This document shows positions 2,665 through 52,952 of a stretch of DNA of 64,000 nt, piece after piece. The translations under genes were made by a program, and so were the position numbers. Numbering within the stretch: the first letter of the stretch is position 1; each line of letters opens with the position of its first letter. The notes under the pieces are model-generated. The model did no database searches. It was not told the origin of the DNA and saw only the letters and a list, made by a program, of their open reading frames with translations. The stretch comes from a virus (lineage: Duplodnaviria > Heunggongvirae > Uroviricota > Caudoviricetes), in the IMG/VR virus record IMGVR_UViG_3300031902_000927; one strand, written 5' to 3'.

Positions 2665-5469
2665 ATGATAACTGTAATTAAAGGGAAAGAAGAAGAAAGT
2701 GGAGTAACTTTAAGAATACGTGATAGTGATACAAATACAACTTCTGAAAGATACTTTGATTTCACTAATTATTTTTATATAAAAGAAGAAGACTATCAAG
2801 ATGTTTCTTACATTGTAGACCCATTAATTAAAGATAAGATATTAGTAGAAGATAAAGACAGTAATCAATATTATCAATTACTTTTAAAAAATAATTTTCA
2901 TAGAAATATGATTAGAAATCAAATTGAAGAATTAGGAATATCAACATTTGAAGCGGACCTAACAGCCGTTAAAAGAATGATGGTTGATAATGCACATTTA
3001 CCACTTCATCAAGAAGGATTAAGAATTGCATTTTACGATATAGAATCTGACGATAGAAAGCCATTTGTTAAAGATATAAAAGGTGATATTGTTCCAAAAT
3101 ATCCAATAACTTCAATGGCCGTTAAAGAGTACAAAAGAGGATTTGAAACACCTGTTTGGTATGTTAGAAACGAAGGTCTCGATGGACCAGAGTTTGACGA
3201 ATATAGAGCTTTAAGAAAAGAATATTTAGAATTAAAGAATCAAGAATTGAATACAAAAGAAGTTTATGCAAAATTACAAATATGGGATGTCGAGAAAGGT
3301 CCTGTAGATAATGCTTTATGGGAAGGCGAATATATAATGTTGCAAAAATATCTTGAATATATAAAAGATTTTGATGTAGTTAGCGCGTGGAATGGATTAA
3401 AATTTGATGACCCATATACTCGTGAAAGAACAAAATATCATATGAAATATCATCCTATAAATGATTATGAATCTTTGATGTTGGTAGGTTTTGATTATCA
3501 AGCATCTTATATGTTAAATCACTATACTCCAATAAAGTCTTTTGCTTTGAATAATGTTGCACAAGAAGAATTAATTTCAGAATTAGGAAAGGAAGGTTCC
3601 AAATTAACTCATCCAGATGAAATAAAAAAATTAGATTGGAGAGAAAGAACTAAGTGTGAAAAATATTTTGAATTATTTTTATTATTTCCAGAAGTTCATA
3701 AAGAGTACAACATACAAGATGTAAATTTATTAGAAATGTTAGAGGACAAATTAGGATTTTTCAAATTACATTTTGTACAATGTAAAAAAGCGCACTGTAT
3801 GTTAATTGATTCATTGTATGATAGTAGAATTTGTGATTATATGATTTTAAATGAGAGTAAGAATAGAAAGATTATAAAATTATCAAAGCCAAATGAGTCA
3901 GAAGTAAATGATAGAGAAAACAAATCTGCTCCTGGAGGTTACACATTCTGCGAAAAGCCAGGGATACATTGGAGTGTACTTTGTTATGATTTTCAATCAC
4001 ATTATTTGAATATTATGAGAACATTTAATATTTCTGCTGAAACTTATATAAGAAGTGTTATGCCTGATTTAACAAAAGTCTTTACACCAATTGAGCAAGA
4101 ATATGTAATGTTTTGTATGAATGAAGCTCCAAAGTTTTTAGATAAACAAAACAAATTCCAAAAGAGAAAGTACGATATTCACATTGAAGAAAAAAGAGTT
4201 CAACTTAATGTTAATACAATGGAAGTATTGATGTGGAAATTTATTAATAATTACGACCAAAAAATAGAACATTCTGAAATGGAATGTTATACACCTGCTG
4301 ATATTAATCGTGATGTAAGAGGATGGAATGTACACGGACATTATATTTTTACTAAGGAATTTAGAGGTATAACACCAACAATTTTAGACGATTTATTGGA
4401 AGATAGAAATAAAGTAAAGTATTCTTTAAAATCAATTAAAGATAGTTTTGAATACGATGAAAAGAATTATTATCAATTAGGTTTAAAAAAATTAGGTAAT
4501 GTTTTCTATGGATATTCATTATATAGAGCATCAAGAGATTACAGATTCGAGATTGGTGCAGCAATTACAACTTCGGCAAGATTTTTAACAAAAATAGCAA
4601 TAATTGAGTTAAAAGCAAATGATATGTTATTATTATTCGGAGATACGGATTCTACCTACTCTACAGGAGATAAAACTTCTGAATTTTTAAAACAAGTTTA
4701 TCAAGAATTATTTGATAGAAAATTACCTGTTTTTAATACAATGAATTTTAATGGAAAGTTACACACTATAGTTTTTGAATATGAAAAAACTTATCCTGGA
4801 ATAATACCTATTAAGAAAAAGAGATATTATTATTTTTTAGATGGAAAAATAGATGGAAAAGGTGGAGTACAAACAAGGTCAGATGTTTTAAAACTTGCTA
4901 AAGATTTACAGAAAGAATTACTTGAAGATATTTTTAACAAGAGATTTGTTAAAGAACATTGGAAAGAAAAATTATTTTCTTTAAAGACAAAAATTTCAAA
5001 TTTTGAACTTGAAGAAGAACACATTGTTAGGATTTCTGGTTTAGCAAAACCAATAAATCAATATGGAAAACCAATGTTTGATGGTGCAACTGGATTGCAA
5101 AAGACTTCAAAAGACGGAAAACCAAGATGTGCTCCTATTCCTGCAAACGTCCAAATAGCTATAAGACTTCTTGAAGAAGGAGAAAATGTAAATGTTGGAG
5201 ATAAGATTCGATTTATTGTAGCATCAACTAAACCAAAAATTCAACCAATTACTTTAAAAGAATATAGAGCAAATAAGAGATATGATGTGAACTACTACTA
5301 CGAAAAAGTAATAAAAGCAATACTTGAAATTTTAATTGTTGTTTATCCAGAGGATGTTTACACATATTTTGCAGATTGTTGGCTTTACAGTCCAAAACAA
5401 ATTAAAAGATTACAAGAAGAAATTTCAGAAGATGAAGATGAAGATTCATCTGAAGATGGCGATGAGTAA
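2665..5469 (+). CDS. family B DNA polymerase (3'-5' exo + polymerase domains)
   Basis: Exo I FYDIESDD, Exo II NGLKFDDPY, Exo III YNIQDVNLL; Pol A YDFQSHYLNIM, Pol B KKLGNVFYGYSLY, Pol C LLFGDTDSTYS; acidic C-terminal tail. Confidence 0.9.
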   Translation: MITVIKGKEEESGVTLRIRDSDTNTTSERYFDFTNYFYIKEEDYQDVSYIVDPLIKDKILVEDKDSNQYYQLLLKNNFHRNMIRNQIEELGISTFEADLTAVKRMMVDNAHLPLHQEGLRIAFYDIESDDRKPFVKDIKGDIVPKYPITSMAVKEYKRGFETPVWYVRNEGLDGPEFDEYRALRKEYLELKNQELNTKEVYAKLQIWDVEKGPVDNALWEGEYIMLQKYLEYIKDFDVVSAWNGLKFDDPYTRERTKYHMKYHPINDYESLMLVGFDYQASYMLNHYTPIKSFALNNVAQEELISELGKEGSKLTHPDEIKKLDWRERTKCEKYFELFLLFPEVHKEYNIQDVNLLEMLEDKLGFFKLHFVQCKKAHCMLIDSLYDSRICDYMILNESKNRKIIKLSKPNESEVNDRENKSAPGGYTFCEKPGIHWSVLCYDFQSHYLNIMRTFNISAETYIRSVMPDLTKVFTPIEQEYVMFCMNEAPKFLDKQNKFQKRKYDIHIEEKRVQLNVNTMEVLMWKFINNYDQKIEHSEMECYTPADINRDVRGWNVHGHYIFTKEFRGITPTILDDLLEDRNKVKYSLKSIKDSFEYDEKNYYQLGLKKLGNVFYGYSLYRASRDYRFEIGAAITTSARFLTKIAIIELKANDMLLLFGDTDSTYSTGDKTSEFLKQVYQELFDRKLPVFNTMNFNGKLHTIVFEYEKTYPGIIPIKKKRYYYFLDGKIDGKGGVQTRSDVLKLAKDLQKELLEDIFNKRFVKEHWKEKLFSLKTKISNFELEEEHIVRISGLAKPINQYGKPMFDGATGLQKTSKDGKPRCAPIPANVQIAIRLLEEGENVNVGDKIRFIVASTKPKIQPITLKEYRANKRYDVNYYYEKVIKAILEILIVVYPEDVYTYFADCWLYSPKQIKRLQEEISEDEDEDSSEDGDE

Positions 5470-6038: not shown

Positions 6039-6323
6039 ATGCCACCCAAAGAACTCAAAATGAATATAAAGAAGTATTTTGATGACGGAGTTATGATAGA
6101 TGTAGTTTCTGTTGAAGACGTTTGCCAAGAAATGGAATCAATGAGAAATGAATTTAAAATGAAGTCAGATGCAATCAAGAAAGAAATTTTAGAAAATTTT
6201 GATTTGATTGCCGAAGAAGTTTATTGGAATAAAAAAGTTCAAACAAATACAATTCAAGAAGATAAGTTTATTGAAATGGTAAATAAAGCATTTCTAAAAA
6301 ATTTTGATGAGGAAGAAGAATGA
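6039..6323 (+). CDS. hypothetical acidic protein
   Basis: 94-aa ORF in chain. Confidence 0.4.
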   Translation: MPPKELKMNIKKYFDDGVMIDVVSVEDVCQEMESMRNEFKMKSDAIKKEILENFDLIAEEVYWNKKVQTNTIQEDKFIEMVNKAFLKNFDEEEE

Positions 6324-6862
6324 ATGATATTGTAATAGTAAATGGAAAACAAGTTGTAATCAAACCGTCGAAGAGCAGGTTTAATAAAAGTGCTTATATA
6401 ATGTCACAAGAAATATATCGTGATTTAGAAAAGATAGGAATAACAAAAGAATTTATAGACCTTCCAATACCAAGAAATCCATTAAAGCTTGGTGAAGCTG
6501 CGCAAATAAGTTGGACTGTAAATAAACATCAGTATTATTTCTCTTCAAATAAACAAGAAAGATTTCAAGATAATTTAGGCGTTCTTGCAGTTGTTATAAA
6601 ACAAGAAAGTTATTCTATAAGAAATGGACTTAAAACTTTTACACAAGTTATGAATCAATTTGCAATAGGTTTTGATGATAAAAAAGAAAAGACAAAAACG
6701 CCGCGTGAGATAATTGGTGTTGAAGAGAATTCTAAAGATAAAGAATATATAACATTCAAATATAAACAAAAAGCTAGAACATTACATCCAGATGCAGGTG
6801 GAAATGCTGAAGAATTCAGAAAATTGAATGAAGCTTACAATGAAATTATGAAGGAGGAATAA
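6320..6862 (+). CDS. J-domain (DnaJ-like) protein
   Basis: C-terminal EYITFKYKQKARTLHPDAGGNAEEFRKLNEAYNEI matches J-domain helix II-HPD-helix III. Confidence 0.6.
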   Translation: MNDIVIVNGKQVVIKPSKSRFNKSAYIMSQEIYRDLEKIGITKEFIDLPIPRNPLKLGEAAQISWTVNKHQYYFSSNKQERFQDNLGVLAVVIKQESYSIRNGLKTFTQVMNQFAIGFDDKKEKTKTPREIIGVEENSKDKEYITFKYKQKARTLHPDAGGNAEEFRKLNEAYNEIMKEE

Positions 6863-7547: not shown

Positions 7548-8045
7548 ATGACGAGAAAAATAATAGCAAAATTTTGGTGTGAGATGTGTCAAAAGACACA
7601 GATAAAGGAATTAGCAATTGATATTGAAGAAAATAATTTTCCTTATGAAATGGGTTGGTTTGAGCTAAATTCATTTAATATGGTAGCTCCAAAGCGTTCT
7701 GGTACACCTGTTGAGATTGAATTTTCAAATAAGGATTTTTGCAGCAGAGATTGCGCTATTAATTATATTGAACAAGCACTACTACAATCTGAAACAAAAG
7801 TTCAAGAACCAAAAGCAGTTCCAACTGAACCTATTCCAACAATTCCACAAAGAGCAGAGATTTTAAGGCCAGAGCAACCACAAAAACCAGAACAAAAGCT
7901 TGGCGCGATGGGACACCCTTTATCTGAATCTTATGATAATTATACAGGTAAACCATACGACACAGAAGAGCTTGATTCTGTTCCAGAGTTAGGACCAAAA
8001 AAAACAGAAGAACCTAAGAAGAGATTTGGATTTTTTAAGAGATGA
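7548..8045 (+). CDS. hypothetical protein with N-terminal zinc ribbon
   Basis: CEMCQ...CSRDC; GAGGAGG SD; Pro-rich middle. Confidence 0.4.
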   Translation: MTRKIIAKFWCEMCQKTQIKELAIDIEENNFPYEMGWFELNSFNMVAPKRSGTPVEIEFSNKDFCSRDCAINYIEQALLQSETKVQEPKAVPTEPIPTIPQRAEILRPEQPQKPEQKLGAMGHPLSESYDNYTGKPYDTEELDSVPELGPKKTEEPKKRFGFFKR

Positions 8046-8497
8046 AGCCTTGGATTTACAAAGGTAAAGAATATACAAAAGCAGATGCGGAAATAGAAGC
8101 ATTTGTTTATTTAATTGTTGGTCCAGAAAAAACTTATATAGGAAAAAAGAACTTTTGGCATACGTTAAAAAGACCTCCAAAAAAAGGAAATAAGAATAAA
8201 AGACACGAAATAAAGGAAACAGAATGGCAATCTTATTGTGGTTCAAGTGAAGCATTATTAGAGGATATAAAAAAATTTGGAGAAGATAAATTTCATAGAG
8301 AAATATTGATTTTATGCAGCAAGAAATGTATTGCTTCTTATTTTGAATTATATTTTCAAATGCAAGAGAATGTTTTATTTGACACTTTTTCTTATAATAA
8401 TATTATTAATATACGACTTAACGGAAACATATTTCTTAATCATAAAGATGAATGTCGTAGAATTCTTAAAGAGCTTGAAGCTAAGAACAAATTTTAG
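8042..8497 (+). CDS. possible GIY-YIG-like nuclease domain protein
   Basis: FVYLIVGPEKTYIGKK resembles GIY-(9-11)-YIG, with downstream R/E; weak. Confidence 0.3.
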   Translation: MKPWIYKGKEYTKADAEIEAFVYLIVGPEKTYIGKKNFWHTLKRPPKKGNKNKRHEIKETEWQSYCGSSEALLEDIKKFGEDKFHREILILCSKKCIASYFELYFQMQENVLFDTFSYNNIINIRLNGNIFLNHKDECRRILKELEAKNKF

Positions 8498-8920: not shown

Positions 8921-9757
8921 ATGATTCATATCTGTAAACTAGCCTATATAAAAACACAAGATGGAATGGCATATAAGCGTTGTGTAGATATGATAAGATT
9001 TCAAGAAAATGTTACAGCAGGTCAAAGTACAGGTTTTGTTTGGCGTGATAGACAGGGATTTCACATAAGAAAATCTATTGGAAAAGTAAATTCATTTTTA
9101 GCAAAATATCCAGATATATTAACAAATGTTAATGAATGTTTAGGTCATTCAAGATGGGCAACAATTTCTCCAATCACAATTGATAATCAACATCCAATTC
9201 CAATTATGTACAAGGGAACAAAATTGGCTTATGGAGTTCATAATGGTACTTTTCACGAATATCAAAGTTATGAATATCTAAGAAATGACATTTCAAATAA
9301 GACCGATAGCGCGTTACTCTTAACGATGTTCGGTCGAATGTTAGAAAGACTTGGAGATTCAAAATTAAATAGAGTTAAATCATTTTCTTATATAATGTCT
9401 TTGATAAATCAAGGTAGTGGAAATCACAATCTTATAATTATGTTTAAAGACGGAATGGTTCTATTTAGCGGTAACGTATTAACTTACAAAGTTAATCAAA
9501 ATAATGTAGGAATTATGACTTTTGGTCTTCCAGAACAATGTCAAGATAATGTTATTTACGAGATTAAAGACTTTACAGTTATTCAACTTGATATGGTTGT
9601 ACCACCATTTAGATTTAAACCAAGAGAACCAAAGGTTTTAAAGGTTAAAACACAAAAATCAAAAAATTCTGTTCAAACTAATTTAGAATCTTTAGATGTT
9701 TATGAAACAGAAATGTCTAATTATGAAAGAGAAATGAGAAGAGATATGAGGCGATAA
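8921..9757 (+). CDS. class-II glutamine amidotransferase (Ntn hydrolase) domain protein
   Basis: Collinear with PurF/GlmS N-domain: Cys5, VTAGQ, LGHSRWATISPITIDNQHP, GVHNGTFHEY, NKTDSALLL, LIIMFKDGMVLFSGN; a 4-aa propeptide before Cys is implied. Confidence 0.6.
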   Translation: MIHICKLAYIKTQDGMAYKRCVDMIRFQENVTAGQSTGFVWRDRQGFHIRKSIGKVNSFLAKYPDILTNVNECLGHSRWATISPITIDNQHPIPIMYKGTKLAYGVHNGTFHEYQSYEYLRNDISNKTDSALLLTMFGRMLERLGDSKLNRVKSFSYIMSLINQGSGNHNLIIMFKDGMVLFSGNVLTYKVNQNNVGIMTFGLPEQCQDNVIYEIKDFTVIQLDMVVPPFRFKPREPKVLKVKTQKSKNSVQTNLESLDVYETEMSNYEREMRRDMRR

Positions 9758-9759
9758 TA

Positions 9760-10233
9760 ATGAAAATCAATCAAAAACAACACATTACAAAGAAAGGTGT
9801 AGTCAAGAGAAATCCTGGTAAAGTTAATTCGTATTTAGAATTACAAAATAAACATAAGAAAGATATTAGTAATTTTCCAATGATATTTGCTTTTAGTGAA
9901 GAGCAGCTTAAAGAAGGATTAAAAAAGCTCGGTGTTACAAAAGATAAAGTTGTTTCAGTTTATGGTGGAGCAATTATCAGAGCTACTGATAAAGATAAAT
10001 ATTTAGCAATGAATATTAGACACGATAGAGAGCACAAAGAAATGATGAATGATAAAAATTATGTCTATAATATGTTTAAATATGAATTAGCAAATCACGA
10101 ATACAGTTATACTTTAGATGATACTGATACTTTAAGGAGTTTAGGTCTAACAAAGGAGCAAGTTAATAATAATCTATTGTTGAGAGAACAGTTAGAAAAA
10201 GCAAAACATATAACAATTAAAAATGAAAGATGA
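9760..10233 (+). CDS. MKIN-tag family protein A (conserved 19-aa N-terminus, unique C-terminal body)
   Basis: MKINQKQHITKKGVVKRNP; 5' nucleotide module shared with 5 paralogs. Confidence 0.6.
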   Translation: MKINQKQHITKKGVVKRNPGKVNSYLELQNKHKKDISNFPMIFAFSEEQLKEGLKKLGVTKDKVVSVYGGAIIRATDKDKYLAMNIRHDREHKEMMNDKNYVYNMFKYELANHEYSYTLDDTDTLRSLGLTKEQVNNNLLLREQLEKAKHITIKNER

Positions 10234-10240
10234 GGCGAAA

Positions 10241-10579
10241 ATGAAAATTAACAACAAACAACATATTACAAAGAAAGGCGTAATAAAGAGAAATCCACCA
10301 AGTGCAAATAAAACAATATTATTGAAATTGAAAAATGATAAAGTTTTTTCTAAACCAGAATGGAGAACGATTGCCCACGAAAAAGATGAAGGTAAAATAA
10401 ATGATGATGAGATTTATTTTTATGTACCAAATCTTGTAAATTTCAATAAAATAAAAATAGGCGATATTGTAGAACTTGATGAAGATTTTGTAGTCGTTGA
10501 TATTTCAAGAGAATTTAAGACGGATAAATTTATGGTTAAACCAAATAAATTAAAACGTAAAAAAATGTTTTTTGAATAA
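10241..10579 (+). CDS. MKIN-tag family protein B
   Basis: MKINNKQHITKKGVIKRNP; 50-nt identity with copy E including TGAGGCGAAAATG junction; track ORF opens at 10223. Confidence 0.6.
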   Translation: MKINNKQHITKKGVIKRNPPSANKTILLKLKNDKVFSKPEWRTIAHEKDEGKINDDEIYFYVPNLVNFNKIKIGDIVELDEDFVVVDISREFKTDKFMVKPNKLKRKKMFFE

Positions 10580-10596
10580 ATTCAAGAGGATAAATT

Positions 10597-11631
10597 ATGG
10601 CTTGGACAATTTTAACAAATCGGACAGAAGGACACAATAAGTTTTGGAGTCACGATGAAGAAGGTAACGTTCATTGGGGTAGAATTGGAACTAGAGGTCA
10701 GTCTGGAAGATATGATATGTCAAATGTAATGCACAAAGAAATGCAAAAGTTGAGTAATGGTTATGTTCTTATTACTAGAAATGGTTCAACACCTTTCCCT
10801 GGAAGTGAGCAAGGAGATAGAATCGAAGCCGTAAGAGAAACTTTAAGACAAACAAGGACTGTAACACCACAATCATTTTCAAGAATCGTAAGAAATACAA
10901 GACAAAGAGTTCATCAATCAGAATCAAATATTTCCTTAGATACACAGGATGTAGAAAATTTAAGGACAGGTGGACACAATAGAAGTACAACTAACTCCGA
11001 AGGTATGAGAGTACCAGAATTTGATAGAAATCACAATGTTCCTAATGTAGATACTTATAAAACTGATGCAGCAGGTTATATTAAATATCGAACAGGTTAT
11101 AAGAGACAATCTTTTGATAATTATTCTTCTACTTTGAAAGTTATGAAAGTAAGCGAACTTGTAAATTCAAATTTGGTTGGTGTAGATAATCCATTTTTTA
11201 AGAAGGCTAAAGAGTATTTTAATAGAATACCAGGAGATTCTCAATATAATAAGCCAGAAAACTTTGAACAATTAAGAGAAAATCATCGTCCTACTTATGC
11301 AGTATTATATTCAGTTGAAAGAAATAATATAGAATGTGTTGCAATTTTTGGAGTAAATAGAAGTTTAAAATATTGTGATTTCTTATCTTTAAAAAAGAAT
11401 ACACCATATTATAGAACGATTTTAAAATATATTATTAAGAGTATTTCAAGATTTGTAGATGTTGATGGAAAAATAAATTTTAAAATAAAGAGTCCATCGA
11501 TTAGAAAAGAAATAAAAGAAATAGCAGATTATTATATTTCTACAACAGGAGATAATATTGTTTATAATGTAAGAGATTTACAAACTGGAATTTCCGAAGA
11601 TGAAGTTAAGCCAAAAAGGTGGATAGAGTGA
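10597..11631 (+). CDS. WGR-domain protein
   Basis: N-terminal NKFWSHDEEGNVHWGRIGTRGQSG matches the WGR domain signature; 3' end overlaps next gene. Confidence 0.55.
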   Translation: MAWTILTNRTEGHNKFWSHDEEGNVHWGRIGTRGQSGRYDMSNVMHKEMQKLSNGYVLITRNGSTPFPGSEQGDRIEAVRETLRQTRTVTPQSFSRIVRNTRQRVHQSESNISLDTQDVENLRTGGHNRSTTNSEGMRVPEFDRNHNVPNVDTYKTDAAGYIKYRTGYKRQSFDNYSSTLKVMKVSELVNSNLVGVDNPFFKKAKEYFNRIPGDSQYNKPENFEQLRENHRPTYAVLYSVERNNIECVAIFGVNRSLKYCDFLSLKKNTPYYRTILKYIIKSISRFVDVDGKINFKIKSPSIRKEIKEIADYYISTTGDNIVYNVRDLQTGISEDEVKPKRWIE

Positions 11632-13967
11632 GTATAATATACGGTATTGGAATCGAGCTTGAAACGTCATATAGTTTTTCAGATACCAATAGAGTAAGTA
11701 GAAATATGACAGTTCGACAAGCTCCAAATGAATTTAGAGCAGATGATAGTAGTTATTGGAATCCAAGAGATAAATGGAATAGAAGAGAAAGTGATTCAAA
11801 TTATGTTCAATTACACGGAGATTCTACAGTAAATGGAAATGCTAATGGTGGTGGTTTTGAATTTCAATTAACTGAATCAAAAGCATTAAATAAAAACCCA
11901 AAGCAGATGTGTAATTTATTATATGATTCAGTAAATGATGGAGCAAGAGTAGTAAAATCAACATTACCAAATGTTGTACCAAGTCATTTTGGAACACAAG
12001 TTGGTTATAATACTTCTCAAGCAAATGCTAAATTTGGTTCTTATCATTTAAATGTCACAATGCCTTATGAAAGTACAAAAATGTCTAATGAGGAATATGT
12101 AGAGAATTATAGAAAAAAATTATTTAAAGGTATAAAAGTTGTAAGAGTTCTTGAACCATTATTTATAGCTATGACAGGTGGAGCAGATTTAAAATCTGTT
12201 GGAACACCTTCAAGAGCAGAAGGTTCTGGAAGACAAGCATATTTAGCTTATGGAAATTTAGGTAATACTGCTTTAAAAGAAGAATTTAGAGATGCAATAT
12301 TCTCTGAAAATTCTAGCGACACAATGTTTAAGTATAATAATGAAGCACCACAATTTAAAGATAAAATTTCTACTACTTTAGACGATGATAATGTTTCAAA
12401 AGGTGAAGTAGGAGATATTGTTGTCAAACAATACGGTAATGTTAGTAGAAGAATAAGAACAATAGAGTTTAGATTTTTAGACCCATTCTTTGTACCAAAT
12501 TTTTATGAAGTTTGTAAAGTAATGATTGCTGCAATGGAGCACGGAGAAAATGTTGGAGATATTACAGATGCTAAAACAAATCAACATTGGAATGTAGCTG
12601 CTGCAAGAATTATTGAAGAAGGTTGGAACGCAAGATTACCAAAAGAATATCAAACCTTAATCAAAGATAAATTAGATTTGGACATAAAAGTTAAAGATAA
12701 CAAAAGAGCAGATTTAGTTTTCCAGGAAGTTGCTATAGCTTTATGGAATAAAAATAAAACAGGGTTATGGGTAAAATCAATGTTTGATGAATTATCCACA
12801 CCTAAAGTTTTAAATTTAAACAGATATAATTGGGATATGCAATTCCGTCATAGGTATGTTAATGAAGATAATTTTACGAATTATATTAACAAATTTATCG
12901 CTACATTAAAAAAGATAGATACATCCAGAAGTAATGGTTGGGTCAAAGTTACTTTTGATGCAAGTGGTAAAATAGTTATAAGAGATTTAATTCAAGATGA
13001 TGATAGATTTGGTGTAGATATGTCTTCAGAAGATTATGAGGATATTTTATTTTTATTAGAAAGAGTTGGCGCAGTCGAGTTAAAAACAGATGATGCAGGT
13101 GTTATTGAAGCATTAAAAGTTACAATTACTAATCCAAAAGATGTTATGAAAAAGATTGACAATTTACAATCGATTGAAGGAATTGAAGAAACTTATTTTG
13201 GAAGAGAAGAAAGAGCTTCAACTCCAAGAAGAACTGAAACAGAAACTAGAACAGTTCAACCTTCTCCAAGTGTTGGAAGACGAGAGGTAATCAGAGAAGA
13301 TGGAACTATCGATAATGATTTATTAATGATTAGAAGAGTCACTCCAGAAGTTGATTCAACATTATATTATAATGTAAGAGATTTGCAAGAAGTATTTAAT
13401 GCAGCAAGTTTTTTAGATGAATCAAGTCAGCAATTTAGAATTAAGATAATTCCTGCTTCGATTAAATATGATAATTCTGAAAGATTAAGTTTCTGGAAAA
13501 GAGAAGGATTAAATATAACAATTTTTATTAATTCAGATGATTTTGAAAATGATGAAGATAGAATTAGTACATTGATAAATAAAATGAAAAATAATTTTTA
13601 TTCATCTTTTTCTGTACATCGTTCAAATGTTTTTACAAATAATTTATCGGTTGAACAATTCTTTTCTCGTCTAAATACAGTCTCCACAACACATTATGAT
13701 AAAAGTGGTATGGAAAAGATTTCTTTAGATAAAGCAGGGCTTGAAACTTTAAAAGAATTTGCAATTAGAATTATTTCATTGTCAAGAGGAAAATCATATT
13801 TTATAACAGATAAAGTTAAATATGCAACATTGAAAAGAAGATTTGGAGAAAAAATACAATTAATAAAATATATGCCTTATCAAAAAGGAGTATTTGTTTC
13901 TAAGCAAGGAAATACATTTACTCTTGTGATGAATAATAAACAAATAGATGTTTTACGGAGGAATTAA
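11619..13967 (+). CDS. glutamine-synthetase-like amidoligase (carboxylate-amine ligase fold) with C-terminal extension
   Basis: N-terminal GIGIELE strand, GGGFEFQL, and SRRIRTIEFRFLDP matching GS motif ARRIEVRFPDP; 782 aa. Confidence 0.55.
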   Translation: MDRVSIIYGIGIELETSYSFSDTNRVSRNMTVRQAPNEFRADDSSYWNPRDKWNRRESDSNYVQLHGDSTVNGNANGGGFEFQLTESKALNKNPKQMCNLLYDSVNDGARVVKSTLPNVVPSHFGTQVGYNTSQANAKFGSYHLNVTMPYESTKMSNEEYVENYRKKLFKGIKVVRVLEPLFIAMTGGADLKSVGTPSRAEGSGRQAYLAYGNLGNTALKEEFRDAIFSENSSDTMFKYNNEAPQFKDKISTTLDDDNVSKGEVGDIVVKQYGNVSRRIRTIEFRFLDPFFVPNFYEVCKVMIAAMEHGENVGDITDAKTNQHWNVAAARIIEEGWNARLPKEYQTLIKDKLDLDIKVKDNKRADLVFQEVAIALWNKNKTGLWVKSMFDELSTPKVLNLNRYNWDMQFRHRYVNEDNFTNYINKFIATLKKIDTSRSNGWVKVTFDASGKIVIRDLIQDDDRFGVDMSSEDYEDILFLLERVGAVELKTDDAGVIEALKVTITNPKDVMKKIDNLQSIEGIEETYFGREERASTPRRTETETRTVQPSPSVGRREVIREDGTIDNDLLMIRRVTPEVDSTLYYNVRDLQEVFNAASFLDESSQQFRIKIIPASIKYDNSERLSFWKREGLNITIFINSDDFENDEDRISTLINKMKNNFYSSFSVHRSNVFTNNLSVEQFFSRLNTVSTTHYDKSGMEKISLDKAGLETLKEFAIRIISLSRGKSYFITDKVKYATLKRRFGEKIQLIKYMPYQKGVFVSKQGNTFTLVMNNKQIDVLRRN

Positions 13968-13968
13968 A

Positions 13969-14334
13969 ATGGGAAGAAGTGAATCTAATATTCAATCAAA
14001 TGATAGACCAATACAATCAAGAAATGTTAGTCGAGCAGATATAATTATATATAAATATAATCTTGAATGGAAGATTTTCGATATTACTGGAGAAGTGAGT
14101 CGTAATTCTAAACCATTTGAAACAAGAGATGAGTTAGATAGTTATTTGGCGTTATTAAAAAAGAAAACACCAAAGAACTTAAATCTTGTAGTCAATATAA
14201 GAGAATTATCTACTAATGAAATTATTGATAAGATGCACAAAGAACAAGGTAAAAAGAATTTCAAGAGGGTGAGAGATGATAGAGCATCGATTTTAAGAAT
14301 AGATAAAAGAAGAAGAACTGTGAGGATTAAATGA
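13969..14334 (+). CDS. hypothetical basic protein
   Basis: GGAGGAAT SD before ATG 13969; track ORF opens at 13948. Confidence 0.4.
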   Translation: MGRSESNIQSNDRPIQSRNVSRADIIIYKYNLEWKIFDITGEVSRNSKPFETRDELDSYLALLKKKTPKNLNLVVNIRELSTNEIIDKMHKEQGKKNFKRVRDDRASILRIDKRRRTVRIK

Positions 14335-15278
14335 AACAAAAACCTAAGAAGAGAGCAACAGTACATATTCGAGGTAGTCCACGTTCTACTAACCCTATTG
14401 CTATCACAGGTTCGAGTAGACTTAACGAAAAAGCTGTAAAGGTTCTTGGAGCAATTAAGTTTTCACCTTCTAGTATTTCCAGGGAAGATATTTCCGATGA
14501 AACTTCATTACAAAATATAGACGTGGAAAGACAAGTAAAATTATTGATTCAATTAAATTTAATAAAAATAAATTCTAAATTTCCACAATTTCCACAACAG
14601 GGTTGGAGAGTTTATACTACTCCAGAAGAGCATTTAAAAATAATTACAATTTTGAAGCAGCACGGAATGGAAGACCCAAGAACAGAAACAACTAGAGGAT
14701 TGCTTGGTGATTATTATCCAATAGGGTTGCAGCTCGAAGGTGATGGATTACAACAAGACCGTGGTAGAAGTTATACACAAGGAATAGTTGTAATTCCAGA
14801 ATTAGAATTTAGAACAGAAGCAATAGCAGTTATGAAAAAATTTAGAGATGAGATAAAACCATTTCAACCAAAAGAATTTTCACAAGAAGCAATATTGAAG
14901 AAAAAAGAAAAATGGGTTTGGTTTGTAAAAGAAATGTCAAGGGCTTATAGAGTACCAACACCAAACGTAACTTTTGGAATATTCAGCGAAGATTCTTGGA
15001 AAAGAGAAGGTTCATCAGCAAGAGATGATGAAGGTAATTCATCAAGTTTTAATCGTGGAACAAATACATTATATTTTACAGGAAGATTCAGTCTTGTGAC
15101 ATTATTGCACGAATTTGGTCACGCTAGAGGCTTTGACGAAACTGATGCTATAATTTGGTCGCAAAATTTTGGACTTAGAATATTTCCAGTCACTTTCAAT
15201 AGATTAATTAAAGATGTTAAGCCAGGAACACATATGCTTACAAGAAGCGATGAAACACAAAGGCAATTTGAGTTATAA
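14331..15278 (+). CDS. zincin-like metallopeptidase (HExxH)
   Basis: VTLLHEFGHARGFDETD near C-terminus. Confidence 0.5.
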   Translation: MKQKPKKRATVHIRGSPRSTNPIAITGSSRLNEKAVKVLGAIKFSPSSISREDISDETSLQNIDVERQVKLLIQLNLIKINSKFPQFPQQGWRVYTTPEEHLKIITILKQHGMEDPRTETTRGLLGDYYPIGLQLEGDGLQQDRGRSYTQGIVVIPELEFRTEAIAVMKKFRDEIKPFQPKEFSQEAILKKKEKWVWFVKEMSRAYRVPTPNVTFGIFSEDSWKREGSSARDDEGNSSSFNRGTNTLYFTGRFSLVTLLHEFGHARGFDETDAIIWSQNFGLRIFPVTFNRLIKDVKPGTHMLTRSDETQRQFEL

Positions 15279-27171: not shown

Positions 27172-27618
27172 ATGAAGGTATTTACGTACGGTACACTAAT
27201 GCAAGGATTTAGAAATCATCGAGTGATGCAAGAAGCACAAGGAAAATTAATTGGAAAAGCAATTCTTTCAAATAAATCAATATATTTCACAAACCCAGGG
27301 TCATTTCCTGCCGTTATTGATGGAAAAGGTAATGTTTATGGGGAAGTTTGGGAAATAAGCGAGAACAAGATTACAACGCCTTATGGTGAGAGTATATATC
27401 CAATTCAAATTCTCGATAGACTTGAAGGTTACAATCCAAAAAGGCCTAAAGAAAATAATATGTATAATCGACAAAAAGCGATTGTAACGATGGCTAATGG
27501 AAAAAAAGTTTGGATTTCTTATTATCATTGGAATGGTGAAATTGTTGCAAGTCTTCGAATAAAATCTGGAGATTTTGCAAAAGAATATCAACATTATCAT
27601 AGTCGTTATCAAGGGTAA
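27172..27618 (+). CDS. gamma-glutamyl cyclotransferase-like (AIG2/GGCT fold) protein
   Basis: MKVFTYGTLMQGFRNHRVM...FPAVIDGKGNVYGEVWEI matches AIG2-like YGTL...GEV. Confidence 0.65.
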   Translation: MKVFTYGTLMQGFRNHRVMQEAQGKLIGKAILSNKSIYFTNPGSFPAVIDGKGNVYGEVWEISENKITTPYGESIYPIQILDRLEGYNPKRPKENNMYNRQKAIVTMANGKKVWISYYHWNGEIVASLRIKSGDFAKEYQHYHSRYQG

Positions 27619-42032: not shown

Positions 42033-43040
42033 ATGGAATTACAAAAAATAAATAAAAAATTAATCAATTTCGACCCACAAAATCCACGTGTAGATTTTGA
42101 TAAAAATGAATTGGAACAACTTCAAGCAAGTATTGAAGATAGAGGACAATTAGAACCTGTACACCTGGAAGAATTATCTAAAGACTCTTTTCTAGTTAAT
42201 GAAGGTAATATGAGAGTTGCAGCTATAAAAAAGTCTACTAAAGTTGATTATGTCTTGGCAATTATCGAAAAAAAGCTTACAGATGAAGATAGATTACTCA
42301 AACAAATCATAATCGATACACATCGAAAGAATTGGTCTACGTTCGACCGTGACAAGTCTTGGAAAAAACTTTGGTTGATGGGACAATTTCATTATGATGT
42401 CGATACTTTTGCTAAAAAGATTTCCGTTACTAAAGATACTGTCGAAGCTTTTGTCGATAGAATGAATCTTGGTGAAGAATTTATATCAAAAATGAAAAAT
42501 ATTAGTGCATCAAATATAACGGAAACTAAAAGAATCAATGATATTAAATTACGTAAAAAAGTATTAGCATATGCTGATAAAAAAGGACTCACCAGAAATG
42601 ATGTTAGAAAGCTTACAGAAGTAGCTAATAAGGTTTCTGATGAAGTTATGGATGATTTGACTAATGATAAGATTTCGATTGATGATGCTTCAAATATGAA
42701 AGGAATGACGGTCAAAGAACAATCTATGGCATTGGTTACTACAAAAGCTTTGAATCACCACAAGAAAAAGCTTAAATCAATGATTAGTAAAGGCAGCATA
42801 AAGGAGTCAAAACCTCTAATTGAGGCAACAAATAAAGTTAATGAGTTCCAGACAAGATTCTTCAAATTAAGTGCAGATTTGAGAGATATGGGCTACGCTT
42901 TGGAAGAATTAGGAAAGAAAGATATTAAAAAAGAGATTAACGAACCAATGCGAATAATTTTGAAGGGTTGTCTCAAAGAATTGAAGAGTAAAGTTGAACC
43001 TGCTATAAAAAAGCTTGAAGATAATTTGGGGGACTTGTAA
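42033..43040 (+). CDS. ParB/Srx-like nuclease-domain protein
   Basis: INFDPQNPRVDFDKNELEQLQASIEDRGQLEPV...NEGNMRVAAI resembles ParB N-terminal box. Confidence 0.55.
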   Translation: MELQKINKKLINFDPQNPRVDFDKNELEQLQASIEDRGQLEPVHLEELSKDSFLVNEGNMRVAAIKKSTKVDYVLAIIEKKLTDEDRLLKQIIIDTHRKNWSTFDRDKSWKKLWLMGQFHYDVDTFAKKISVTKDTVEAFVDRMNLGEEFISKMKNISASNITETKRINDIKLRKKVLAYADKKGLTRNDVRKLTEVANKVSDEVMDDLTNDKISIDDASNMKGMTVKEQSMALVTTKALNHHKKKLKSMISKGSIKESKPLIEATNKVNEFQTRFFKLSADLRDMGYALEELGKKDIKKEINEPMRIILKGCLKELKSKVEPAIKKLEDNLGDL

Positions 43041-51717: not shown

Positions 51718-51936
51718 ATGGTGGATAAAATAAAAAAATTAAAGGTTGTAGAGATAAGTATTTTAGATGGCGATAAAAAGACATTAAACGTTAGCAGACC
51801 TATACCAATTCTAAAAGGAAAAGCAGCTAAAAGATTCTATAAAATTATAAATCAAGGCAAAATTAGTGAGAAACAAAATAAATTCTTAAAAGATTGTGTT
51901 AAATTGTCTAAAAAGACTAAGAGGACTAAGAAATGA
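51718..51936 (+). CDS. hypothetical basic protein
   Basis: 72 aa. Confidence 0.4.
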   Translation: MVDKIKKLKVVEISILDGDKKTLNVSRPIPILKGKAAKRFYKIINQGKISEKQNKFLKDCVKLSKKTKRTKK

Positions 51937-52952
51937 GTAAATCTATAAATTTAAATGAAAAAATTAAACCACAATTATACGTAAATCAATTAGCTACTGT
52001 TAAAGACTCCAAAGTATATGTTGTGAGTTATGATGAAATTATGGACGAAAAAGGCAATTCTACTGGAGATAAAGAAGCAAATTATGTTGAAATTCCTTCT
52101 GGAAAATATCTATATTCAACAAAAATGGATGGTGTTAGAACAGTAATAACAGACCATTCTATAGAAAGTCGTTCTAAAACAACTTTTCCAAATGATAATC
52201 TCACCAAAGAATTTAAACATTTGAAAGAATATTGTAAAGAAAATAATGTTATATTAGATGGTGAATTTTACTCCCACGAAGTGAATTTTTCTGATATAAT
52301 AACAATATGTATGACAAAAGGAAACAAAATTGAAATACCAAGCAGCTTAAAGTTTCATTGTTTCGACTGCATACCTATAAATGACCTAGAAATGCCATTT
52401 AACGAAAGAATTAAATTAATTCCTACAAATCTACCTAAACTGGAAATTGTAGAACAAAAAGAGGTTTTAATACCACAAGAATCTGATATTTTAAGCCAAG
52501 AATTTAGAAAAATGCTAGATTTGAGTTTTGAAGGACTTATAATTCGTGGTGCAACAAGTAAATATAAATTTGGAAGAACCACACCAACCTGTGGAACAGG
52601 CTACAAATTTAAAGAATATGTCACATACGATGCAAAAATATTAGATGTAATTCAAGCAACTGTCGTTAAAGATGGTGTTGAAACAACTACAAATCAACTT
52701 GGAAAGAGTGTTACAAGTAAAAAGAAAGATGACCGAGAAACAATTGAACAAGCAAGTGGTTTTTACTGTGAATTAGATGGAAAAAAATTTACAGTAACTT
52801 TAGGATTGAGTGATGAATTTTCAACAAAAATATGGCAAGAAAAAGAAAAATATATTGGAGAATACTGTGAATTTAAAGCAATGGAAACAACTAAAGACTT
52901 ACCACGTAATCCAGGATATTTAAGAATGAGATGGAAAAATCAAGACGAATAA
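51933..52952 (+). CDS. ATP-dependent DNA ligase (compact, nucleotidyltransferase + OB)
   Basis: Motif I KMDGVR, III ILDGEFY, IIIa FHCFDCI, IV EGLIIRG, V KFKE, VI PRNPGYLRMRWKNQ. Confidence 0.85.
   Translation: MSKSINLNEKIKPQLYVNQLATVKDSKVYVVSYDEIMDEKGNSTGDKEANYVEIPSGKYLYSTKMDGVRTVITDHSIESRSKTTFPNDNLTKEFKHLKEYCKENNVILDGEFYSHEVNFSDIITICMTKGNKIEIPSSLKFHCFDCIPINDLEMPFNERIKLIPTNLPKLEIVEQKEVLIPQESDILSQEFRKMLDLSFEGLIIRGATSKYKFGRTTPTCGTGYKFKEYVTYDAKILDVIQATVVKDGVETTTNQLGKSVTSKKKDDRETIEQASGFYCELDGKKFTVTLGLSDEFSTKIWQEKEKYIGEYCEFKAMETTKDLPRNPGYLRMRWKNQDE

What the first reader, a model, noticed from the sequence alone, without database searches (positions are those of the whole stretch)
8921..15278. 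Putative peptide-ligation/tagging cluster: GAT-II (Ntn) domain, WGR protein, GS-like amidoligase, HExxH zincin
8921..9757 aligns collinearly with class-II glutamine amidotransferase domains, matching at the nucleophile Cys, the GH.RWAT region, HNG and TDSE.LL motifs.

11619..13967 carries glutamine-synthetase-fold hallmarks: an N-terminal GIGIELE strand and RTIEFRFLDP, compare GS ARRIEVRFPDP. It is translationally coupled to an upstream WGR-domain protein (10597..11631). A zincin (HEFGH) lies at 14331..15278. An AIG2/gamma-glutamyl-cyclotransferase-like gene lies further on at 27172..27618.

The combination of amidoligase, GAT-II and GGCT matches comparative-genomics predictions of phage and bacterial systems that build or remove peptide or gamma-glutamyl tags on proteins or metabolites. 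The WGR fusion neighbour and the peptidase would be new accessory parts.

The WGR protein and the amidoligase ORF also share a 21-nt block encoding YNVRDLQ (about 11564 and 13367). Two MKIN-tag genes sit inside the cluster.
Basis: partly seen in the sequence, partly recalled or inferred. Interest (0 to 1): 0.8.

Follow-up and report, generated by a model that had tools for sequence, protein, structure and literature searches.

The report
Conserved phage amide-ligase gene module
An uncultured phage carries a tightly packed, conserved five-gene set: an ATP-dependent amide-bond-forming enzyme from a family absent from Pfam and NCBIfam, a glutamine-type amidohydrolase, and three partners, two of them with DNA-binding-type domains; this looks like a new variant of a predicted but untested viral modification system.

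Summary
The sequence features are real. 8921-9757 is a stand-alone class-II (Ntn) glutamine amidotransferase-type protein. 10597-11631 has an N-terminal WGR domain.

14331-15278 is a MarR-like winged helix fused to a domain with an invariant HExxHxxGxxE motif. 27172-27618 is a GGACT cyclotransferase.

With a small basic protein (13969-14334), the first four form a five-gene module. It is conserved in nine related metagenomic phage loci. Its core (ligase plus HExxH domain, plus GAT-II or a fused WGR) recurs next to very distant ligase relatives.

The ligase matches neither Pfam Amidoligase_2, COOH-NH2_lig nor GCS2. Its family has no Pfam model and is common in giant-virus MAGs.

The peptide-tagging reading is not shown. 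No tag-like protein is evident, GGACT is only loosely linked, and the zincin fold could not be verified.

The accumulation of DNA-binding-type domains favours a nucleic-acid-associated target, but this is inference. Verdict: a new variant of the known, uncharacterised phage ligase/GAT-II systems; moderately interesting.

The parts
8921..9757 (+). Stand-alone class-II (Ntn) glutamine amidotransferase-type protein. The catalytic Cys codon is at 8933. The C-terminal ~90 residues are of unknown function.
   Evidence: Pfam GATase_6 scores 28 bits against a cut-off of 27. NCBIfam GlmS N-terminal match at 5.9e-8. PDB profile hit to PurF at 1.5e-3. The invariant Cys/Arg/Asn-Gly/Asp set is present. Orthologues start Met-Cys, whereas the window has ATC at that codon.
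9760..10233 (+). Inserted MKIN-tagged gene (DUF7659). It is not part of the conserved core.
   Evidence: Pfam DUF7659 at 3.7e-38. No homologue was found in L003, L004 or L009 beyond the 19-26-residue N-terminal tag, and in L003/L004 the GAT-II gene abuts the WGR gene.
10241..10579 (+). Inserted MKIN-tagged gene. Its L001 counterpart carries an extra C-terminal WGR domain.
   Evidence: 80% identity to the N-terminal part of the L001 195-aa protein. The C-terminus of that L001 protein matches the WGR region of the 344-aa protein.
10597..11631 (+). WGR-domain protein: WGR (residues 1-65), a low-complexity linker, and a conserved C-terminal alpha/beta domain of unknown fold.
   Evidence: Alignment with invariant WGRIG. 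The WGR profile links to ligase-fused WGR domains. The C-terminal domain gave no PDB or Pfam hit. A weak collinear match to the L012 gene upstream of the ligase scores E 0.009.
11628..13967 (+). Large ligase. Domains: GS/GCL/YbdK/PafA-fold carboxylate-amine ligase (~1-315), helical domain (~320-430), winged helix (~454-514), disordered linker (518-561) and C-terminal alpha/beta domains (569-782). Residue numbers follow the ORF from 11619.
13969..14334 (+). Small conserved protein: a ~65-residue alpha/beta core plus a basic C-terminal tail.
   Evidence: Present directly after the ligase in all 9 related loci. GGAGG lies 7 nt upstream of ATG 13969. No family match.
14331..15278 (+). MarR-like winged helix (~28-95) fused to a C-terminal domain with an invariant HExxHxxGxxE motif. 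Putative zinc-dependent hydrolase.
27172..27618 (+). GGACT/AIG2-like gamma-glutamyl(amine) cyclotransferase, loosely associated with the module.
   Evidence: Pfam GGACT at 1.7e-20 and PHROG gamma-glutamyl cyclotransferase at 2.4e-21. A GGACT gene lies ~0.3 kb from the last module gene in L003 and ~1.4 kb from the GAT-II gene in L010. None appears in the fetched flanks of L001, L004, L008, L009 or L011.

Best explanation
This is a conserved, translationally coupled phage operon. It makes, and probably also trims, an amide linkage on a macromolecular target that is most likely nucleic acid or a nucleic-acid-bound protein.

Shown:
- The 779-aa protein has a glutamine-synthetase-fold carboxylate-amine ligase domain with an invariant set of acidic, His and Arg residues.
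- The first gene is a stand-alone Ntn (class II) amidotransferase-type enzyme. It keeps the Cys nucleophile, the Asn-Gly oxyanion pair, and the Arg and Asp that in GlmS and PurF hold the alpha-carboxylate and alpha-amino group of glutamine.
- The five genes travel together.

Inferred mechanism:
- The ligase uses ATP to form an acyl-phosphate on a carboxylate and couples it to an amine.
- The GAT-II protein has no fused synthase domain. It most likely hydrolyses a gamma-glutamyl/glutamine-type amide, as EgtC or YafJ do. Alternatively it supplies ammonia to the ligase.
- The HExxH protein is a metal-dependent hydrolase that processes or reverses the product.
- The WGR domain, the winged helix inside the ligase, the MarR-like wHTH on the hydrolase and the basic-tailed small protein bring the enzymes to DNA/RNA or to a nucleoprotein substrate.

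For: Invariant residues in the ligase domain. GAT-II assignment and residues.

Operon structure: GTGA and ATGA overlaps, and GGAGG before the small gene.

Conservation of all five genes in L001, L003, L004, L009, L010 and L011, and in part of L008.

Deep conservation:
- Stand-alone HExxH domains sit upstream of the distant ligases, within 0.8 kb in L012 and about 1.8 kb in L013.
- A GAT-II gene is present in L012.
- WGR is fused to the ligase in P0029 and P0024.

Nucleic-acid-type domains: WH hits within the ligase and a MarR-like wHTH. WGR is regarded as DNA-binding in PMC7824862.

Position: between DNA polymerase B and DNA ligase.

Precedents:
- Amidoligase and amidotransferase genes co-occur with thymidine hypermodification clusters (PMC8989533).
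- An ATP-dependent amide ligase acts on a DNA base carboxylate, and relatives carry an AsnB-type glutaminase domain (PMC12783734).
Against: - No biochemical data exist.
- No enzyme that would create a reactive handle on a base was found among the window proteins scanned (pyrimidine hydroxymethylase, C5-methyltransferase/CmoX, TET/JBP, 5-HMUDK, aGPT-Pplase). Only 64 kb of a contig of at least 105 kb was seen.
- Winged helices and WGR can also mediate protein contacts.
- The HExxH domain gave no fold or profile match to known zincins.
- Giant-virus relatives of the ligase have none of the partners nearby.
- In the window the GAT-II Cys is not directly after the ATG.
Confidence: 0.4

Rival explanations
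1. Peptide or protein tagging. The GS-fold ligase attaches glutamate or a small peptide to phage or host proteins, as PafA attaches Pup. The Ntn hydrolase and the HExxH peptidase prepare or remove the tag.
Against: The only small co-conserved protein has a variable, basic C-terminus with no conserved Gln, Glu or Gly end. Pup-like features are absent. YbdK/GS/GCL-type small-molecule ligases are closer structural neighbours than PafA. This view does not explain the three nucleic-acid-type domains.
Confidence: 0.2
2. Small-molecule gamma-glutamyl metabolism. The ligase gamma-glutamylates a free amine (a polyamine, amino acid or cell-wall precursor) or makes a gamma-glutamyl peptide. GAT-II and GGACT recycle it. 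This would resemble PuuA/PuuD or EgtA/EgtC, as an auxiliary metabolic or host-takeover function.
For: The best structural matches are small-molecule ligases: YbdK-like, GS and GCL. The GAT-II keeps the residues that bind a free glutamine or gamma-glutamyl head group. A GGACT gene is in the same genome and lies adjacent to the module in L003 and L010.
Against: About 460 residues of extra domains on the ligase, including a WH, would be unnecessary. The same applies to the obligatory WGR, wHTH-HExxH and small basic partners. GGACT linkage is inconsistent. No transporter or other metabolic genes are nearby.
Confidence: 0.2
3. Co-located but functionally separate genes. For example, the wHTH-HExxH protein could be a transcription regulator or anti-repressor protease and the WGR protein a transcription factor, simply inherited next to a ligase/GAT-II pair.
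For: wHTH and WGR domains occur in phage transcription factors (PMC7824862). Mobile genes are inserted between module genes in the window and in L001, which shows the block tolerates interruption.
Against: Start/stop overlaps link WGR, ligase, small protein and HExxH protein. Order and content are kept down to 35-50% identity. The HExxH domain persists beside very distant ligases without its wHTH, and WGR is fused to the ligase in two relatives.
Confidence: 0.1

Closest known systems
Phage COOH-NH2 ligase / GAT-II / GGCT clusters of the phiEco32/LUZ24 type (Iyer, Abhiman, Burroughs & Aravind 2009; Pfam PF12224 Amidoligase_2, PF14395 COOH-NH2_lig)
   Same: Both combine an ATP-dependent amide ligase with a class-II amidotransferase-type protein and an AIG2/GGACT gene. 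Both lie beside replication genes of a lytic phage. In both cases the function has not been established experimentally, as far as the papers I could read say (PMC10580990). LUZ24 gp16, gp18, gp19 and gp22 were verified.
   Different: - The ligase here matches neither Pfam family and shows no hhalign similarity to LUZ24 gp16 or gp18.
- It is about twice as long and has WH and further domains.
- The GAT-II is 278 aa rather than 510 aa.
- No ATP-grasp partner was found in the window.
- The WGR protein, small basic protein and wHTH-HExxH protein are new partners.
- GGACT is not stably adjacent.
YbdK/GCS2 carboxylate-amine ligases, and the EgtA-EgtC pair of ergothioneine synthesis
   Different: Sequence identity is 13%. 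There is no Pfam GCS2 match. The extra domains and nucleic-acid-type partners are absent from those small-molecule pathways.
PafA/Dop pupylation enzymes
   Different: There is no Pup-like tag. PafA and Dop are more distant structural neighbours than YbdK and GS. The partners differ.
CmoY and AsnB-type amide ligases of phage DNA hypermodification (PMC12783734)
   Same: ATP-dependent formation of an amide on a macromolecular (DNA) carboxylate. Some relatives carry a class-II glutaminase domain that supplies ammonia. This is the functional model for the DNA-directed reading.
   Different: CmoY is an AMP-forming asparagine-synthetase homologue, not a GS-fold enzyme. CmoA and CmoX partners were not found in the window.

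Membership tests
Class-II (Ntn) glutamine amidotransferase domain | Profile match at or above the curated threshold | tested here: met
   Pfam GATase_6 scores 28.0 bits against a cut-off of 27. The match is marginal on its own. It is backed by the NCBIfam GlmS N-terminal match at 5.9e-8 and a PDB PurF hit at 1.5e-3 with an orthologue profile. Gene calls on L011 and L012 list unmarked Pfam GAT hits (GATase_4 and GATase_6, E at most 1e-5).
Class-II (Ntn) glutamine amidotransferase domain | Nucleophile Cys as the first residue after the initiator Met | tested here: inconclusive
   Four orthologues start MCKLA. In the window the aligned start codon is ATC, and the only ATG gives MIHI-C. This needs ATC initiation or removal of a 4-residue propeptide.
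Class-II (Ntn) glutamine amidotransferase domain | Glutamine-binding Arg, oxyanion Asn-Gly and Asp | tested here: met
   GHSR.AT, HNG and KTDSALL are invariant in 5 orthologues and align to the PurF motifs. Residue roles are taken from GlmS/PurF knowledge.
Class-II (Ntn) glutamine amidotransferase domain | Fused acceptor (synthase) domain, as in GlmS, PurF and AsnB | tested here: not met
   The protein is 278 aa and no second domain was recognised. It is stand-alone like EgtC and YafJ.
Glutamine synthetase / GCL / carboxylate-amine ligase fold superfamily | Fold similarity to solved members | tested here: met
Glutamine synthetase / GCL / carboxylate-amine ligase fold superfamily | Conserved metal/ATP-binding Glu, His and Arg residues | tested here: inconclusive
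   E13, E15, E81, H143, E283 and R285 are invariant and persist in distant relatives. Residue-by-residue superposition on a GS active site was not possible with these tools.
Glutamine synthetase / GCL / carboxylate-amine ligase fold superfamily | ATP-dependent amide-bond formation | not testable with these tools
   Needs an enzyme assay.
Pfam Amidoligase_2 (PF12224) / COOH-NH2_lig (PF14395) / GCS2 | Match to the family profile | tested here: not met
   No hit at E up to 1 for the window protein. None of 68 distant relatives hits these families. The positive control worked: LUZ24 gp18 and gp16 hit them. hhalign against gp16 and gp18 gave E 0.4-0.6.
WGR domain (PF05406) | Profile match and the W-G-R-[IV]-G signature | tested here: met
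   The direct Pfam score is 17.3 bits, below the cut-off of 22. The signature is invariant. The region's profile finds the domains fused to two distant ligases (8.9e-12 for P0029, 1.3e-6 for P0024). One of the 68 distant ligases scanned is called WGR by Pfam at 9.1e-12. Membership is therefore by a transitive match.
Zincin metallopeptidases | HExxH on a helix plus a third metal ligand | tested here: met
   H260, E261, H264, G267 and E270 are invariant in 26 homologues and in two distant short forms. The motif lies on predicted helix 255-265, after strand 246-249. E270 as the third ligand is inferred.
Zincin metallopeptidases | Fold or profile similarity to known zincins | tested here: inconclusive
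GGACT / AIG2-like gamma-glutamyl cyclotransferase | Profile match above threshold | tested here: met
   74.2 bits against a cut-off of 22.8.
Iyer-2009-type phage ligase/GAT-II/GGCT system | Stable gene-neighbourhood linkage of ligase, GAT-II and GGCT | tested here: inconclusive
   Ligase and GAT-II are linked in every locus that reaches far enough. GGACT lies within 5 kb in L003 and L010 only. It is 12 kb away in the window and absent from the flanks of five other loci.
Pup-like protein tagging | Small tag protein with a conserved C-terminal Gln/Glu (or Gly-Gly) | tested here: not met
   The only small conserved partner ends in variable basic tails of different length.

The most novel reading that the evidence does not exclude
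The module is a DNA-directed amide ligase system of a fold not yet known to act on nucleic acids. The GS-fold ligase is guided by WGR and winged-helix domains. It attaches glutamate or another amine/amino acid to a base-borne or end-borne group, or amidates that group with GAT-II-derived ammonia. The HExxH hydrolase and GGACT trim the adduct. The result would be a new phage DNA hypermodification pathway. The same ligase family in giant viruses could then mark a wider, unrecognised viral modification chemistry.
Probability: 0.2. Interest if true: 0.85.

Novelty: new variant of a known kind. Interest (0 to 1): 0.6.

Why it matters
Phage ligase/GAT-II clusters have been annotated since 2009 and are widespread, yet the papers I could read still describe their function as unexplored (PMC10580990).

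This module supplies a much richer context: obligatory WGR, wHTH-HExxH and small basic partners, plus ligase-WGR fusions. That narrows the hypotheses towards a macromolecular, probably nucleic-acid-associated, substrate and gives a defined five-protein set to reconstitute.

It also exposes a GS-fold ligase family that has no Pfam or NCBIfam model. At least 160 clusters at 50% identity reach E of 0.001 or better. The family is shared by tailed phages and giant-virus MAGs.

If the target is DNA, this would add a new enzyme fold to DNA hypermodification chemistry. If the target is protein, it would be a viral analogue of pupylation.

Tried and rejected
- BLASTN and TBLASTN of the cluster and the ligase against 50,697 phage records: no match.
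- Pfam, PHROGs, NCBIfam and PADLOC on the ligase, WGR protein, small protein and HExxH protein: nothing significant.
- PDB sequence and profile searches for the ligase, HExxH protein (full length and C-terminal domain), and WGR protein (full length and C-terminal domain): no credible hits.
- IMG/VR and GTDB genome scans with the close-family alignment: nothing confirmed.
- Common domain behind the YNVRDLQ motif shared by the WGR protein, the ligase and (loosely) the small protein: rejected. hhalign gave E 0.05-0.44, and one shared 7-mer is near the chance expectation.
- GNAT-like fold for the C-terminal domain of the WGR protein: not supported. The only leads were a weak ArsN2 hit in the L012 neighbour and E 0.009 collinearity. 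Pfam and PDB searches gave nothing.
- Small protein as a Pup-like tag: rejected on its C-terminus.
- Fold search for the HExxH domain: uninformative, because wHTH hits saturated both lists. The afdb50 library was unavailable.
- Promoter/terminator scan: not above the shuffles.
- Search for base-modification genes in the window: none found.
- Structural-protein reading of 11619-13967: rejected by the fold result.
Full report
CONTEXT

The window is 28% G+C, with nearly all genes on one strand. It encodes a family-B DNA polymerase (2665-5469), an ATP-dependent DNA ligase (51933-52952), a ParB-N protein, a segE-type GIY-YIG homing endonuclease (8042-8497), and long fibre-like proteins.

It is therefore part of a large tailed phage genome. 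It has no nucleotide or protein-level relative among 50,697 deposited phage records. Identical proteins occur on JGI metagenome contigs of up to 105.7 kb.

THE OBSERVATION

GAT-II (8921-9757)
- It reaches the Pfam GATase_6 threshold (28.0 vs 27 bits).
- It matches the GlmS N-terminal domain in NCBIfam (5.9e-8).
- As a five-sequence profile it finds PurF in the PDB (1.5e-3).
- The Cys nucleophile, the Arg of GHSR.AT, the HNG oxyanion pair and the Asp of KTDSALL are invariant.
- Orthologues begin Met-Cys. In the window the aligned start codon has become ATC, 9 nt after the same GGAGG, and an ATG directly after the GGAGG adds MIHI. An active enzyme here needs ATC initiation or loss of four residues.

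The large protein
- It has no Pfam, PHROG, NCBIfam or PDB sequence match.
E81, H143, R176, E201 and R205 are also invariant.
- Beyond residue ~315 the model shows a helical domain, a winged helix (~454-514, many WH hits), a disordered linker and C-terminal alpha/beta domains.
- The likely start is GTG 11628, forming GTGA with the upstream stop.

The WGR protein
- It has an invariant WGRIG core.
- Its direct Pfam score is sub-threshold.
- Its profile recovers WGR domains fused to two distant ligases. One of the 68 distant ligases scanned is a clear Pfam WGR match at 9.1e-12.

The 315-aa protein

Other features
- GGACT at 27172-27618 is unambiguous.
- The YNVRDLQ block is 20/21 nt identical. A single shared 7-mer is near the chance expectation (0.53 in shuffles), and no domain homology underlies it.

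A CONSERVED MODULE

The genes recur in the same order in L001, L003, L004, L009, L010 and L011, and partly in L008. The order is GAT-II, WGR protein, ligase, a small basic protein (13969-14334, preceded by GGAGG) and the wHTH-HExxH protein. Across these loci the ligase identity falls to 35-47% in the blast-aligned loci, and the L010/L011 ligases are more divergent still (profile scores 526-579 against 1,077-1,221 bits).

In L003 and L004 the five genes are contiguous. In the window and in L001, MKIN-tagged genes are inserted after the GAT-II gene. Start/stop overlaps join WGR, ligase, small protein and hydrolase.

An exhaustive profile search with the ligase domain found 160 cluster representatives.
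- Next to one distant relative (L012) lie a GAT-II gene and a stand-alone HExxH domain.
- Upstream of another (L013) lies a stand-alone HExxH domain, and the ligase itself ends in a WGR domain.
- A third relative (P0024) starts with WGR.

The links ligase-HExxH, ligase-WGR and ligase-GAT-II are therefore old and not accidents of one lineage.

GGACT is different. It lies beside the module in L003 and L010. It is 12 kb away in the window, and it is absent from the flanks of the other five loci for which gene calls were available.

FAMILY PLACEMENT OF THE LIGASE

None of 68 distant relatives hits Amidoligase_2, COOH-NH2_lig, GCS2 or Gln-synt in Pfam.

As a positive control, LUZ24 gp16 (COOH-NH2_lig), gp18 (Amidoligase_2), gp19 (GAT-II) and gp22 (GGACT) are recognised. 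Those genes form the already known type of phage cluster. hhalign finds no similarity between our family and gp16 or gp18.

A scan of IMG/VR with the distant alignment returned 79 loci, mostly giant-virus MAG contigs. Two further relatives lie on giant-virus-like contigs. None of the 79 loci has the phage partners within 8 kb.

The ligase therefore belongs to the GS-fold superfamily, in a family that the curated libraries do not hold.

MECHANISM

What the data show is a GS-fold ligase and a stand-alone Ntn amidotransferase-type enzyme in an operon with three conserved partners.

From established knowledge of the superfamily, the ligase should phosphorylate a carboxylate with ATP and couple it to an amine. 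Class-II GAT domains that deliver ammonia are normally fused to their synthase. Stand-alone forms such as EgtC hydrolyse gamma-glutamyl amides. I therefore rank hydrolysis or trimming above ammonia supply, but I cannot exclude the latter.

The putative zinc hydrolase would process or reverse the product. Its fold assignment remains inferential, because both fold searches returned only wHTH matches and profile searches were empty.

For the target, the accumulation of WGR, an internal WH, a MarR-like wHTH and a basic-tailed protein points to nucleic acid or a nucleoprotein. So do the location in the replication block and the published links between amide ligases or amidotransferases and DNA hypermodification (PMC8989533, PMC12783734).

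Against this, no handle-making base-modification enzyme was seen among the window proteins scanned. Only L004 carries a Mom gene nearby.

The peptide-tagging reading is possible but lacks a tag. A free-metabolite reading fits the nearest structural neighbours but not the partners.

NOVELTY AND VERDICT

The module works like the phage ligase/GAT-II/GGCT systems predicted in 2009 (own knowledge of Iyer et al.; example verified). It fails the membership tests for their ligase families and has a different, larger set of partners.

I rate it a new variant of a known kind, with interest 0.6. The most novel reading not excluded is a GS-fold enzyme system that hypermodifies DNA (probability about 0.2).

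Noticed in passing
window 9760, 10241, 16016, 21853, 23381, 24380 (gene starts); also L001, L003, L009, L012, L013: A 19-residue N-terminal peptide, MKIN[NQ]KQHIT[KR][KR]GV[IV]KRNP, heads six otherwise unrelated genes. DNA conservation starts exactly at the ATG and ends at the Pro codon, with synonymous changes and no conserved upstream DNA, so the peptide itself is under selection. Related basic tags head genes right next to the distant ligases in L012 (including the HExxH protein) and L013. It could be a targeting signal, a propeptide or a modification substrate.
   Followed up: partly
L017-L095 (IMG/VR), L014, L015: The ligase domain family (GxGxExE ... GSYHxNxTLP ... QWxEPL ... EGSxR ... 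ExRFxD) has no Pfam model and is common in giant-virus MAG contigs. 79 loci were found, with proteins of 460-780 aa and none of the phage partners nearby. One relative is fused to alanine-dehydrogenase/PNT domains.
   Followed up: partly
L004 258-1019: A Mom-family gene (PF25680) abuts the DNA polymerase gene 3.5 kb upstream of the module in one related phage. Mom was recently shown to be a tRNA-dependent adenine-modifying enzyme (PMC13219725). No Mom was seen in the window.
   Followed up: no
window 8930-8932: The ancestral ATG of the GAT-II gene is ATC in this phage, with a new in-frame ATG three codons upstream, directly after the GGAGG. This could mean non-canonical initiation, a short propeptide or an inactivated enzyme.
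   Followed up: partly
window 11563-11583 and 13368-13388: YNVRDLQ is shared by the WGR protein and the ligase. A YNxxDL-type motif is kept at the same place in both families. It is statistically unremarkable as a single 7-mer and remains unexplained.
   Followed up: yes
window 8042-8497: A segE-type GIY-YIG homing endonuclease gene lies shortly upstream of the module, about 0.4 kb before the GAT-II gene with one small ORF between (Pfam 1.3e-26). SegE-type genes are also near the module in L003 and L004.
   Followed up: no
window 42033-43040 and elsewhere: Other recognisable genes include a ParB-N domain protein, an Rv2179c-like 3'-5' exoribonuclease (769-1320, 1.5e-47) and a DnaJ-domain protein (6320-6862). 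Band_7, HxlR, NrdR-type zinc ribbon, nucleotidyltransferase and transglutaminase-core hits were also found, but I did not map them to ORFs.
   Followed up: no
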